From Escherichia coli (lineage in GTDB: Bacteria; Pseudomonadota; Gammaproteobacteria; Enterobacterales; Enterobacteriaceae), in assembly GCF_036507355.1 (NCBI RefSeq), contig NZ_AP027877.1: a DNA stretch of 64,000 bases. One strand, written 5' to 3'. Made by a program: the position numbers. This document shows, one piece after another, positions 41,501-44,500 of the stretch. Within the stretch, counting starts at the first letter, position 1; each line of letters begins with the position of its first letter.

Positions 41501-44500
41501 GGTCAGGCTGGTGATAACCTGAATGTGCTCGTTGTTGCGGGCAGCAATACCAATCACCAGACGGGCAATGTCATCTTCTTCTTCACCGAAGCGCACGCCT
41601 TCCGGGTACTGGCAGAACACAACACCCGTTTTCAGTACGCGATCTTTCGCTTCAACCGTACCGTGTGGCACCGCGATAGACTCACCCAGATAAGTCGGGG
41701 TCAGTTTTTCACGATCCAGCATCGCCTGAACGTATTCCGGCTCAACGTAACCGCCTTTCACCAGCTGCTCGCCAGCAAAACGAATCGCTTCTTCTTTGGT
41801 GGCAGCTTTGCGACCGAGGAAGATGTTCTCCGCGCCCAGTTTGAACAGGTTAGCACTGGAATCGTCAAAGCTGTCTTTCAGACTGTCTTTCACTTTCACT
41901 TCGTTTTCAGTATGGCGCTGGGCAGCAACCAGACGTTCGGTCAGGCTGGTGTACAGGCCGCTGTCGAGGAAGTTGGTCAGCGAAATATGCTGTGCCTGCG
42001 GAACCTGGCGCATAGCGCGTTCGGTCAGGTCACGGTGAGTGATGACGAGGTCCACATCTGGCGGCAGGTTGTTGATCGCGCTGTTAGTGACCGAAATCTG
42101 CGACAGACCTGCATCCTGAATTTTCTTACGCAGCACGCCTGCGCCCATCGCACTTGAACCCATACCGGCGTCACAGGCAACGATGATTTTACGTACGTGG
42201 CTCAGGTCGTTAGTCACATCGCCCGCAGACAGCGGAGATGCACCTTTAGACTCAGCTTTCATGTCCTGCATACGACGAGTTGCTGCTTCAATATCATCTT
42301 CTTCTTTCACTTTGCTGGTTTTCAGCAAAATAGCAGAGACAACAAAGGAGACAGCCATCGCCGCACACACACCCGCGATGTTAGCGAAATAAGCACCTTT
42401 TGGTGTCATCGCCAGTACAGCAAGGATAGAACCCGGAGACGCCGGAGAAACCAGACCACCGCCCAGGATAGTCAGCGTGAACACGCCAGTCATACCGCCG
42501 AGGATAACGGCCAGGATCAGACGCGGATTCATCAGCACATACGGGAAGTAGATTTCGTGGATACCACCCAGGAAGTGGATGATTGCCGCACCGCCCGCAG
42601 ACTGTTTAGCGCTACCACGACCAAAGAACATGTACGCCAGCAGCACGCCCATACCTGGACCTGGGTTAGCTTCAATCAGGAAGAATATGGATTTACCCAG
42701 TTCATGGGACTGCTGAATACCCAGCGGCGAGAAGATACCGTGGTTAATGGCGTTGTTGAGGAACAGGATTTTCGCCGGTTCAACAAAGATAGACGCCAGC
42801 GGCAGCATGTCATGGACAACCATGAAGTTAACGCCCGCAGCCAGCATTTTGGACAGGGCTTCAACAATCGGGCCAATGCCGAGAAATGCCAGAATGGCGA
42901 GGATCATCCCGATGATGCCTGCGGAGAAGTTATTCACCAGCATCTCAAAACCGGATTTGATCTTACCGTCTACCCAGCGGTCGAAGTGCTTAATGCACCA
43001 GCCGCCCAGCGGACCTGCAATCATAGAACCGAGGAACATCGGCATGTCTGCGCCGACGATAACGCCCATGGTGGTGATGGCACCGACTACGCCGCCACGT
43101 TCGCCGCCTACCAGCTTACCACCGGTATAACCGATCAGCAGCGGCAGGAGGTAAGTGATCATCGGTCCGACTAGCTTCGCCAGCGTCTCGTTCGGTAACC
43201 ACCCTGTTGGAATAAATAACGCGGTGATGATACCCCACGCGATAAACGCGCCGATATTTGGCATCACCATGTTGCTGAGGAAACGACCAAAGCTTTGCAC
43301 TTTGATCTTAATATCGGATGACATAAAAACACCCCTTCTTATGTTTGCTGTCGCGCAGGCTGGAAGCCCGAGGTTTTTTGTTAATGTGGCGGCAGAGGTA
43401 GCCGGACCTTGTAGATACTGCGAAATCTGGCACTGAATCGGTTAACTGTCCAGTCGACGGTCTTTTGTGTGATATCAATCACATAAATATAGGGGGTAGA
43501 GAGGTAATTGACGTGACGTTCATCACAAAACGCTTGTGTGAAAAAGCAACAAGGCGGCGATTTTCGCTAAAAATGGCATTTAAATGTGAGTAGTGTCACA
43601 TTTTTGTTTTGACGGTTTGTTGAATCTTTGTGATCTGAATCACAAGATATTTTCTTACGGCGTTCACCTGATGTGATCTACAGCATGTTATGCCTTCGTC
43701 ATACAATCGTTATGTAACTAAGCAACTCATCACCTCTAAAAATTATTCTTTGGTGTTATGGCGAGAATCGCGAACCCGGATTATTGTCAAAATATCAGCC
43801 TGACTCCCTTCTGGCTGCCAGCCAAAAAACAACACTGATAAACGTGAATCCGAGGCAGATATGTTTCTAAACTATTTCGCGTTGGGAGTGCTGATCTTCG
43901 TCTTTCTGGTGATTTTTTATGGAATCATCGCGATACATGACATCCCTTATCTGATTGCCAAAAAGCGCAACCATCCCCATGCCGACGCTATTCATACGGC
44001 GGGCTGGGTGAGCCTGTTTACTCTGCATGTTATCTGGCCGTTTCTGTGGATCTGGGCGACGCTCTATCAACCGGAGCGTGGCTGGGGTATGCAGTCACAT
44101 GTTGCGTCGCAGGAGAAAGCGACTGACCCGGAAATCGCCGCACTTTCTGACCGAATTTCCCGGCTGGAGCATCAACTCGCCGCCGAGAAAAAGACTGACT
44201 ATTCCACGTTCCCGGAGATCTAATTATGGATCTATTGATTGTTTTAACTTACGTGGCGCTGGCGTGGGCGGTCTTTAAAATCTTTCGTATTCCGGTGAAT
44301 CAGTGGACGCTGGCGACGGCGGCGCTGGGAGGCGTGTTTCTGGTGAGTGGTTTGATTTTGTTGATGAACTACAACCACCCTTACACTTTTACCGCGCAAA
44401 AGGCAGTGATAGCGATCCCTATCACGCCACAGGTGACGGGAATTGTTACTGAAGTCACTGATAAGAATAATCAGCTTATTCAAAAGGGCGAGGTACTTTT

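What the first reader, a model, noticed from the sequence alone, without database searches (positions are those of the whole stretch)
43325..43860. Shared CRP-rich regulatory region between mtlA and the divergent yibI-yibH module
Two perfect CRP consensus sites (tgtgatatcaatcaca and tgtgatctgaatcaca) and further tgtga-containing elements lie in the 536-bp region between divergently transcribed mtlA and yibI. The mtl promoter is known to be CRP-dependent; the geometry raises the possibility that yibIH is also catabolite-regulated from the same sites.
Basis: partly seen in the sequence, partly recalled or inferred. Interest (0 to 1): 0.3.

Follow-up and report, generated by a model that had tools for sequence, protein, structure and literature searches.

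The report
Known five-site CRP operator of mtlA
The CRP-site cluster between mtlA and yibI is real, but it is the long-known five-site control region of the E. coli mannitol operon, and comparative evidence suggests it belongs to mtlA rather than being shared with yibIH.

Summary
The 536-bp mtlA/yibI spacer (43325-43860) holds three perfect TGTGA-N6-TCACA sites, not two, plus a 9/10 site and a 7/10 site. Their centres are spaced 44/73/44/43 bp. This is exactly the published mtl operator, CRP5 to CRP1 at -58.5 to -262.5 (Ramseier & Saier 1995; Lee et al. 2026). There CRP activates mtlADR and pairs of CRP dimers 43-46 bp apart anchor the repressor MtlR. So the feature is already known.

The interpretation that yibIH is regulated from the same sites is untested, and my comparisons lean against it.
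- The array keeps a fixed register to mtlA across about 10 genera, but its distance to the conserved yibI-proximal elements varies.
- Kluyvera keeps yibIH and its proximal 125 bp without mtlADR or any CRP site.
- Kosakonia keeps all five sites without yibIH.
- The paralog yiaWV has no CRP site.
- A conserved TAnnnT -10 footprint puts the likely yibI start near 43794, about 115 bp from the nearest and weakest site, CRP1.

Two results keep co-regulation possible at about 0.25-0.3. A ChIP-seq peak covers CRP1/2, and yibH rises with mtlA at glucose exhaustion. Interest is low.

The parts
41411..43324 (-). mtlA coding sequence (mannitol PTS enzyme IICBA, 637 aa)
   Evidence: ORF list. RefSeq annotation of the matching E. 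coli loci. The protein is 100% identical to a database cluster named PTS mannitol transporter subunit IICBA.
43325..43417 (-). mtlA 5' untranslated region; transcription start inferred at about 43417
   Evidence: Inferred by placing the published site centres (-58.5 to -262.5) on the window. CRP5 centre 43475.5 minus 58.5 gives 43417. The region is highly conserved across genera. It has no unusual predicted RNA structure (z = -0.14).
43424..43432 (-). mtlA -10 region: TGcCAGATT on the minus strand (hexamer 43429..43424, TG at 43432-43431)
   Evidence: Position follows from the inferred start site. The AATCTGGCAC block is invariant or nearly so in 30 sequences. The 43417-43452 stretch has mean column identity 0.93. 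The hexamer assignment is my inference.
43447..43452 (-). mtlA -35 hexamer TGGACA (minus strand), 17-bp spacer to the -10
   Evidence: CTGTCCAG is invariant in the 30-sequence alignment. Position relative to the inferred start is -35..-30.
43468..43483 (.). CRP5, TGTGATATCAATCACA, 10/10, centre -58.5 from the mtlA start; essential for mtl expression
   Evidence: site. (published position and mutant phenotype). Half-site identity across genera is 1.00/0.91, against 0.54 for the spacer.
43512..43527 (.). CRP4, CGTGACGTTCATCACA, 9/10, centre -102.5; essential; 44 bp from CRP5 (an MtlR-competent pair)
   Evidence: Half-site identity 0.88/0.99, against 0.67 for the spacer.
43585..43600 (.). CRP3, TGTGAGTAGTGTCACA, 10/10, centre -175.5; minor effect on mtl expression; 73 bp from CRP4
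Evidence: Half-site identity 1.00/0.92, against 0.45 for the spacer.
43629..43644 (.). CRP2, TGTGATCTGAATCACA, 10/10, centre -219.5; essential; 44 bp from CRP3
   Evidence: Half-site identity 0.99/0.96, against 0.59 for the spacer. Listed under a CRP ChIP-seq peak in ETEC H10407.
43672..43687 (.). CRP1, TGTGATCTACAGCATG, 7/10, centre -262.5; weakly bound and dispensable for mtl induction; 43 bp from CRP2
   Evidence: The left half TGTGA is invariant (1.00) and the right half is 0.70. It is retained at the same offset in Kosakonia, which lacks yibIH.
43737..43751 (+). A/T-rich stretch TAAAAATTATTCTTT. Either an UP-like element of the proposed yibI promoter, or the -10 of an alternative promoter with a start near 43750
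   Evidence: The A-run is conserved in most genera and also in Kluyvera, where there is no mtlA. The functional assignment is inference.
43759..43764 (+). Proposed yibI -35-like hexamer TGGCGA, inside the conserved block ATGGCGA(A/G)AA (43758-43767)
   Evidence: ATGG is invariant in 30 sequences, and the block is also found in 6 Kluyvera loci and in Kosakonia. A matrix scan finds TGGCGA-17-TATnnT at the same relative position in most genera.
43782..43787 (+). Proposed yibI -10 hexamer TATTGT; predicted start near 43794
   Evidence: T43782, A43783 and T43787 (TAnnnT) are invariant, while the middle positions vary. The hexamer lies inside the CRP-less DFI insert of UTI89 clone 68, about 43717-43951. 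No start-site mapping was found.
43796..43817 (+). Conserved inverted repeat CAGCC-N12-GGCTG just downstream of the predicted yibI start. Either a 5'-UTR hairpin or an operator; function unknown
   Evidence: The arms are conserved and the 12-nt interior varies in Escherichia, Citrobacter, Yokenella and Kluyvera. There is one compensatory change, in Raoultella terrigena.
43861..45362 (+). yibI (DUF3302, 120 aa, 43861-44223) and yibH (HlyD-type membrane-fusion-like protein, 378 aa, 44226-45362)
   Evidence: ORFs, Pfam, RefSeq annotation.

Best explanation
The cluster is the control region (operator) of the mannitol operon mtlADR.

Five cAMP-CRP sites lie upstream of the mtlA promoter, at -58.5, -102.5, -175.5, -219.5 and -262.5. 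The promoter reads -35 TGGACA, 17 bp, TGcCAGATT, with a start near 43417 on the minus strand. CRP bound at CRP5, CRP4 and CRP2, helped by CRP3, activates transcription when glucose is absent. Pairs of CRP dimers 43-46 bp apart (CRP4-5, CRP2-3, CRP1-2) form the platform onto which the DNA-binding-deficient repressor MtlR docks in the absence of mannitol. All of this is published work on E. coli, and the window carries the same sites unchanged.

yibIH is simply the neighbour on the other side. It most likely starts from its own weak sigma-70 promoter in the proximal 125 bp: A/T-rich 43737-51, -35-like TGGCGA 43759-64, -10 TATTGT 43782-87, start about 43794. That start is about 115 bp or more from the nearest site, the weakly occupied CRP1. 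This promoter does not depend on the array. The yibI part is inference from comparative sequence, not measurement.
For: Shown:
- The site sequences and spacing (44/73/44/43) match the published operator exactly.
- CRP2, CRP4 and CRP5 are essential, CRP3 is minor and CRP1 is dispensable and poorly occupied. MtlR needs 43-46 bp spacing.
- Five sites have been known since Ramseier & Saier 1995, as cited.
- Strong CRP binding in SELEX (38 clones), in ChIP-seq and as the top PhyloScan hit.

- In about 45 loci from Escherichia, Citrobacter, Yokenella, Lelliottia, Raoultella, Enterobacter, Leclercia, Klebsiella and Huaxiibacter, the sites keep a fixed distance to the mtlA ATG. Half-sites are conserved (0.88-1.00) while N6 spacers drift (0.45-0.68).
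- Spacer length on the yibI side varies from 530 to 665 bp. The distance from CRP1 to the yibI block varies from 76.5 to 82.5 bp.
- Kluyvera has yibL-yibT-terminator-yibIH with the same proximal block but no mtlADR and no CRP site within 700 bp.
- Kosakonia has mtlA divergent from yibF with no yibIH, yet keeps all five sites including CRP1.
- Klebsiella-like contigs with yibI deleted and yibH decayed keep the array.
- The paralog yiaWV (73%/77% identity) and its orthologs have no CRP site upstream.
- TAnnnT and ATGG are invariant across genera.
- A urine-induced promoter-trap insert reported as about 43717-43951 contains no CRP site.
Against: - No transcription start site or crp-dependent expression data for yibI could be retrieved, so the promoter assignment is only a phylogenetic footprint. 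All candidate promoters score weakly (about 5-7 bits).
- An alternative -10 at the A-run (43737-43) would put CRP1 at -70.5, a class I position. The A-run keeps a roughly constant distance (55.5-59.5) from CRP1 in most genera.
- CRP1 is dispensable for mtl induction, yet its left half is invariant. That leaves room for another role.
- An ETEC ChIP-seq peak over CRP1/2 was assigned to yibI.
- yibH (log2 +3.78) and mtlA (+2.84) rise together as glucose runs out in O157 Sakai.
- The coordinates of DFI clone 68 may reflect only the sequenced part of the insert.
- In Kosakonia a divergent promoter block still sits next to the array, so that case does not remove every divergent partner.
Confidence: 0.65

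Rival explanations
1. yibIH is directly activated by cAMP-CRP bound to the distal sites of the same array (CRP1 and/or CRP2). The spacer would then be a true bidirectional catabolite-controlled region, like malEp-malKp.
For: - With an alternative promoter whose -10 is the A-run TAAAAA/AAAAAT (43737-43), CRP1 sits at -70.5, a class I position.
- The CRP1 left half-site is invariant although CRP1 is dispensable for mtl.
- A ChIP-seq peak lies over CRP1/CRP2.
- Shimada et al. note that both divergent promoters are often regulated.
- yibH and mtlA are co-induced at entry to stationary phase in glucose medium.
Against: - CRP1 is poorly occupied when CRP2 and CRP3 are present.
- CRP1 is equally retained in Kosakonia, which lacks yibIH.
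- Its 42-43 bp spacing to CRP2 is what MtlR docking requires.
- The Kluyvera yibIH and the paralog yiaWV have no CRP sites. yiaW is nevertheless co-induced in the same experiment (+2.75), so that induction need not come from these sites.
- The best-conserved -10 (TAnnnT at 43782-87) puts CRP1 at -114.5.
- The distance from the array to the block is not phase-conserved.
Confidence: 0.25
2. yibIH is influenced only indirectly by the array. The CRP-MtlR nucleoprotein complex, DNA bending or divergent-transcription supercoiling at an active mtlA promoter would modulate (repress or boost) the nearby yibI promoter. yibIH would then be mannitol-responsive without a dedicated CRP contact.
For: - Several bent CRP dimers plus bridging MtlR assemble within 115-330 bp of the proposed yibI start.
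- A 1-bp insertion in this spacer was fixed in a long-term stationary-phase lineage, which shows the region is a target of selection.
Against: No data bear on it. The yibI-proximal unit works in a different context in Kluyvera. The effect would be hard to tell apart from noise.
Confidence: 0.08
3. The cluster of CRP-like sequences is a chance or compositional artefact.
For: None. Allowing 2 mismatches, the window as a whole is not enriched (12 found against 25 expected).
Against: - Three perfect sites against 0.10 expected, with 0 of 100 shuffles reaching 3.
- All sites scoring 9/10 or better in the 64 kb lie within 177 bp.
- Half-sites are conserved and spacers drift across genera.
- Published footprints, EMSAs and mutants exist.
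Confidence: 0.01

Closest known systems
E. coli mtl operator: five cAMP-CRP sites upstream of mtlADR (Ramseier & Saier 1995, Microbiology 141:1901; Lee et al. 2026, NAR 54:gkag751, PMC13421365)
   Same: It is the same locus. The site sequences are identical to K-12, the centre spacings are 44/73/44/43 bp, and the positions are -58.5 to -262.5. mtlA-mtlD-mtlR lie downstream.
   Different: Nothing functional. There are four SNPs relative to K-12, all outside the sites. This strain lacks the RhsA island that K-12 carries beyond yibH.
malEp-malKp divergent promoters sharing a block of CRP sites (Vidal-Ingigliardi & Raibaud 1991, cited)
   Same: Several CRP sites lie in a spacer between divergent transcription units.
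   Different: In mal, both promoters were shown to depend on the shared CRP/MalT nucleoprotein, and the CRP spacing is 34 bp. Here only mtlA dependence is shown. The sites are phased to mtlA and to MtlR (43-46 bp). The likely yibI start is more than 110 bp from the nearest, weak site.
Class I CRP-dependent promoters (site centred near -61.5, -71.5, -82.5 or -92.5; e.g. lac, malT; textbook knowledge)
   Same: Under the alternative A-run promoter, CRP1 would be at -70.5.
   Different: CRP1 is a 7/10 site that is poorly occupied. Under the better-conserved promoter it is at -114.5. The spacing is not conserved between genera.
yiaW-yiaV, the paralogous DUF3302 + HlyD-like pair 9 kb away (window 52960-54422)
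   Same: Same two-gene architecture, with 73% and 77% protein identity. Both are induced at entry into stationary phase in O157.
   Different: No CRP consensus site within 700 bp upstream in E. coli relatives or other genera. It lies downstream of aldB rather than next to mtlA.

Membership tests
cAMP-CRP binding site | Palindromic core TGTGA-N6-TCACA (within a 22-bp site) | tested here: met
   Three sites score 10/10, one scores 9/10 and one scores 7/10. Expected perfect sites in 64 kb: 0.10.
cAMP-CRP binding site | Purifying selection on the half-sites but not on the N6 spacer | tested here: met
   Half-site identity is 0.88-1.00 (CRP1 right half 0.70) against 0.45-0.68 for the spacers, across 30 sequences from about 10 genera.
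cAMP-CRP binding site | Physical binding of cAMP-CRP | not testable with these tools
   Published: EMSA, genomic SELEX with 38 clones, ChIP-seq peaks in ETEC.
mtl operator (CRP array that recruits MtlR) | Five sites centred at -58.5, -102.5, -175.5, -219.5 and -262.5 from the mtlA start | tested here: met
   The window centres 43475.5, 43519.5, 43592.5, 43636.5 and 43679.5 reproduce the published 44/73/44/43 spacing.
mtl operator (CRP array that recruits MtlR) | At least one adjacent pair of sites 43-46 bp apart (needed for MtlR docking) | tested here: met
   CRP4-5 is 44 bp, CRP2-3 is 44 bp and CRP1-2 is 43 bp. These are conserved to within 1 bp in all loci examined.
mtl operator (CRP array that recruits MtlR) | Lies upstream of an mtlA-mtlD-mtlR operon | tested here: met
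   The best complete-genome match to the window (99.1% identity, 100% coverage of 38000-50000) is annotated mtlA, mtlD, mtlR, as is the best match to the spacer. mtlA itself was confirmed in the window.
CRP-dependent promoter of yibIH (class I or II) | CRP site centred at -41.5 (class II) or about -61.5, -71.5, -82.5 or -92.5 (class I) from the transcription start | tested here: inconclusive
   No start site was found in the held data. The footprinted promoter gives -114.5, which does not meet the criterion. The alternative A-run promoter gives -70.5, which does.
CRP-dependent promoter of yibIH (class I or II) | Site-to-promoter spacing conserved among orthologous loci | tested here: not met
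   The distance from CRP1 to the conserved block is 76.5-82.5 bp among genera and 55.5 bp in Kosakonia. The Kluyvera orthologs have no CRP site at all.
CRP-dependent promoter of yibIH (class I or II) | Expression depends on crp/cAMP | not testable with these tools
   Only correlative data exist: yibH rises with mtlA as glucose is exhausted, and yibI is induced in urine relative to LB.

The most novel reading that the evidence does not exclude
The distal part of the mtl CRP/MtlR array (CRP1-CRP2) also gates the divergent yibIH(-yibF) promoter. CRP1 is dispensable for mtl induction yet has an invariant left half. Under this reading, a DUF3302 / HlyD-like membrane module of unknown function would be both catabolite- and mannitol-responsive.
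Probability: 0.25. Interest if true: 0.35.

Novelty: already known. Interest (0 to 1): 0.12.

Why it matters
It matters little. The five-site CRP array of mtlADR is a textbook-level feature, and its mechanism was extended in 2026 (CRP as the DNA anchor for MtlR).

The only open point is whether the uncharacterised yibIH pair belongs to the CRP regulon. If it did, two y-genes would join a regulon of several hundred members, and the conservation of the otherwise dispensable CRP1 site might be explained.

The comparative result has a modest practical use. It is a caution against assigning ChIP-seq or SELEX peaks to the nearest divergent gene by proximity alone. It also provides a testable promoter model for yibI.

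Tried and rejected
1. Looked for a mapped yibI start site or crp-mutant expression. The supplements of Latif 2018, Kim 2018 and Conway 2014 hold nothing or are not held. Kim 2012 and Ettwiller 2016 gave no hit by gene name or coordinate. Zheng 2004 and Thomason 2015 are not held. Text searches for yibI, yibH and yibIp gave nothing on CRP control.
2. The promoter predicted by Shimada 2014, TCTACA-19-TACAAT (43677-82 / 43702-07), was rejected as the main yibI promoter. The TACAAT is not conserved even in E. albertii or E. whittamii, and the spacer is 19 bp.
3. A leader peptide starting at the invariant ATGG (43758; 26 codons here) was rejected. The ORF length ranges from 4 to 27 codons, the frame is not kept, and no Shine-Dalgarno sequence is conserved (my reading of the alignments).
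4. A sigma-54 reading of TGGC...GC at 43759 was rejected. The GG-GC spacing is wrong and the -12 part is not conserved.
5. An Rfam scan of 43250-43950 gave no match.
6. The mtlA 5'-UTR fold is no better than shuffles (z = -0.14).
7. The simple promoter/terminator scan of the spacer gave nothing beyond chance.
8. The MtlA homolog search returned only Klebsiella and Raoultella and was not useful for finding yibI-less taxa. The metagenome DNA-pattern scan did that job instead.
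Full report
OBSERVATION.

The window carries mtlA on the minus strand (41411..43324), then yibI (43861..44223) and yibH (44226..45362) on the plus strand. RefSeq annotation of near-identical E. coli loci gives the same gene names.

A search for TGTGA-N6-TCACA finds three perfect sites in the whole 64 kb, all inside this spacer: 43468-83, 43585-600 and 43629-44. The expected number is 0.10, and none of 100 shuffles reached three.

A 9/10 site lies at 43512-27 and a 7/10 site at 43672-87. Nine TGTGA/TCACA pentamers fall in the spacer against 0.85 expected per 536 bp. One loose 'tgtga' (43537-41) exists only because of a SNP at 43540 that K-12 lacks.

The spacer is present in 5404 of 5426 complete E. 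coli genomes. It differs from K-12 at four positions, none inside a CRP site.

WHAT IT IS.

The five site centres are 43475.5, 43519.5, 43592.5, 43636.5 and 43679.5, so they are 44, 73, 44 and 43 bp apart. Lee et al. 2026 (PMC13421365) describe the E. coli mtl operator as five CRP sites, CRP1-CRP5, centred at -262.5, -219.5, -175.5, -102.5 and -58.5, with those same centre-to-centre distances. The five sites were first reported by Ramseier & Saier in 1995 (cited).

Placing the published positions on the window puts the mtlA start near 43417. On the minus strand, TGGACA then sits at -35 and TGcCAGATT at -10. Both lie in blocks that are nearly invariant across genera. This hexamer assignment is my inference.

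The published mechanism is as follows.
- CRP is essential for mtl transcription. CRP2, CRP4 and CRP5 are indispensable, CRP3 contributes slightly, and CRP1 (7 of 10 consensus bases) is dispensable and poorly occupied.
- MtlR has no DNA-binding domain. It docks onto two CRP dimers whose sites are 43-46 bp apart.
- MtlR is pulled off to the membrane by dephosphorylated EII-Mtl when mannitol is present.

The region is also one of the strongest CRP binders in the genome. It was the second most abundant SELEX clone class, the top PhyloScan prediction, and the site of two adjacent ChIP-seq peaks in ETEC. So the feature itself is fully known.

IS IT SHARED WITH yibIH?

The literature only raises the possibility. 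Shimada 2011 notes that both genes lie downstream of the sites. Haycocks 2015 labels the distal peak 'yibI' by proximity. I found no start-site or crp-mutant data for yibI. I therefore used comparative sequence.

(a) Register to mtlA. I retrieved eighty yibI-like loci from one genome per species. In about 45 of them yibI is divergent from mtlA. These come from Escherichia, Citrobacter, Yokenella, Lelliottia, Raoultella, Enterobacter, Leclercia, Klebsiella and Huaxiibacter. In all of them the CRP sites sit at the same distance from the mtlA ATG, with 44/73/44/42-43 spacing. Half-sites are conserved (0.88-1.00) while N6 spacers drift (0.45-0.68). The yibI side is plastic. The spacer is 530-665 bp, with a roughly 125-bp A/T-rich insertion just before the yibI ribosome site in the Enterobacter group.

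(b) A yibI-proximal unit. The yibI-proximal 125 bp contains the only strongly conserved yibI-side elements. These are an A/T-rich run (43737-51), an invariant ATGG inside ATGGCGA(A/G)AA (43758-67), and TTAnnnTCA, in which T43782, A43783 and T43787 are invariant. A simple sigma-70 matrix picks TGGCGA-17-TATnnT at this same relative position in most genera. TAnnnT is the signature of a -10 hexamer. I therefore propose a start near 43794, with the A/T run as an UP-like element. CRP1 would then be at -114.5 and CRP2 at -157.5, outside the usual class I or class II positions. The distance from CRP1 to the block varies from 76.5 to 82.5 bp between genera, more than half a helical turn.

(c) Natural experiment 1, Kluyvera. 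In six Kluyvera genomes the order is yibL, yibT, a terminator hairpin, then the same proximal unit and yibIH. There is no mtlR, mtlD or mtlA, and no CRP-like site within 700 bp. The proximal unit therefore travels with yibI, and the array does not.

(d) Natural experiment 2, Kosakonia and Klebsiella. A metagenome scan for the CRP5-to-(-35) architecture returned two contigs whose YibF is 97-98% identical to Kosakonia proteins. In these contigs mtlA is divergent from yibF and yibIH is absent. All five sites are nevertheless present at unchanged offsets, including CRP1 (TGTGATCGCCAGCAAA, 8/10). Klebsiella-like contigs with yibI deleted and only fragments of yibH also keep the array. So the conservation of CRP1 does not need yibIH. 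Its 42-43 bp spacing to CRP2 fits the MtlR-docking requirement.

(e) The paralog. The pair yiaW-yiaV (window 52960-54422; 73% and 77% identity) and its orthologs have no CRP site upstream.

(f) Promoter-trap data. In a UPEC promoter-trap screen, a urine-induced yibI insert is reported as UTI89 4027590-4027356. This maps to about 43717-43951. It contains the proposed promoter but no CRP site. The reported coordinates may cover only the sequenced part of the insert.

- All candidate yibI promoters are weak.
- If the A-run (43737-43) is a -10 instead, the start would be near 43750 and CRP1 would sit at -70.5, a class I position. The A-run keeps a roughly constant distance (55.5-59.5) from CRP1 in most genera.
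- CRP1 is dispensable for mtl induction, yet its left half is invariant.
- In E. coli O157 Sakai grown in glucose MOPS medium, yibH (log2 +3.78) and mtlA (+2.84) both rise between late exponential and early stationary phase, in the same cluster as acs, aldA and fadL. However, yiaW, which has no CRP site, also rises (+2.75). This induction may therefore reflect stationary-phase control rather than the mtl array.
- In Kosakonia the conserved block persists next to the array, now 55.5 bp from CRP1 and upstream of yibF. A divergent promoter is therefore still present there.

VERDICT.

- Observation: confirmed and extended, to three perfect sites and five known sites.
- Identity: the published mtl operator, so already known.
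- Interpretation: partly supported. The region is a CRP-dependent control region for mtlA. The 'shared with yibIH' part is untested, and the comparative evidence leans against a dedicated role.
- I estimate about 0.25-0.3 that CRP at these sites has a direct effect on yibIH of 2-fold or more.
- Interest is low.

Noticed in passing
window 43758-43787 (with 43737-43751): There is a conserved yibI-proximal footprint: an invariant ATGG within ATGGCGA(A/G)AA, and 17 bp further on TAnnnT (TATTGT), preceded by an A/T-rich run. It reads as a weak sigma-70 promoter with an UP-like element and a start near 43794. It occurs with yibI in Kluyvera (no mtlA), and the block also occurs with mtlA in Kosakonia (no yibIH).
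   Followed up: partly
window 43796-43823: A conserved inverted repeat CAGCC-N12-GGCTG has a variable interior and one compensatory change (Raoultella terrigena). It overlaps the palindrome GGCTGCCAGCC and lies just downstream of the predicted yibI start. It could be a 5'-UTR hairpin or an operator for an unknown regulator.
   Followed up: partly
window 43758-43838: A small ORF of 26 codons (MARIANPDYCQNISLTPFWLPAKKQH) starts at the invariant ATGG. In other genera its length ranges from 4 to 27 codons and the frame is not kept, so it is probably not a functional peptide.
   Followed up: partly
window 52960-54422: yiaW-yiaV is a close paralog of yibI-yibH (73% and 77% protein identity). It lies 9 kb away, downstream of aldB. 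It has no CRP consensus upstream, yet it is induced together with yibH at stationary-phase entry in O157.
   Followed up: partly
L024, L026, L028, L031, L033, L035, L046-L048, L055-L058, L060 (about 125 bp immediately upstream of the yibI ribosome site): In the Enterobacter/Lelliottia/Raoultella/Leclercia/Huaxiibacter group, an A/T-rich insertion of about 125 bp carries several strong promoter-like matches (for example TTGACA-19-TATGTT and TTGACG-18-TATGTT ending at the yibI start codon). It sits between the conserved block and yibI. This suggests a different or additional yibI promoter in those genera.
   Followed up: no
window 45363-45432, compared with K-12 (L002): In this strain yibH is followed directly by yibF, selA and selB, as in O145 strains. 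The RhsA/yibA/yibG/yibV island that separates them in K-12 is absent.
   Followed up: partly
L145, L158, L199, L111 (metagenome contigs, Klebsiella-like): yibI is deleted and yibH is reduced to fragments (residues about 78-148 and 319-378). The mtlA CRP array and the yibI-proximal promoter block remain intact. This is evidence that yibIH is dispensable in some lineages.
   Followed up: partly
window 43540: A G/A polymorphism (G here, A in K-12) creates an extra TGTGA pentamer between CRP4 and CRP3. It is not one of the five published CRP sites (K-12 has A at 43540, so lacks the pentamer).
   Followed up: yes
mtlA/yibI spacer (literature, PMC7858067): A 1-bp insertion in the mtlA/yibI intergenic region became fixed in a lineage of a 1,200-day stationary-phase culture. 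MtlR docking tolerates only 43-46 bp spacing, so a 1-bp indel between CRP sites could change mtl repression. The position was not given in the text I read.
   Followed up: no
whole window: The best complete E. coli genome is only 99.1-99.4% identical over this region. The MtlA protein is 100% identical to a cluster representative named from Shigella sonnei. The window may come from a Shigella or from an E. coli lineage that is not among the complete RefSeq genomes.
   Followed up: no
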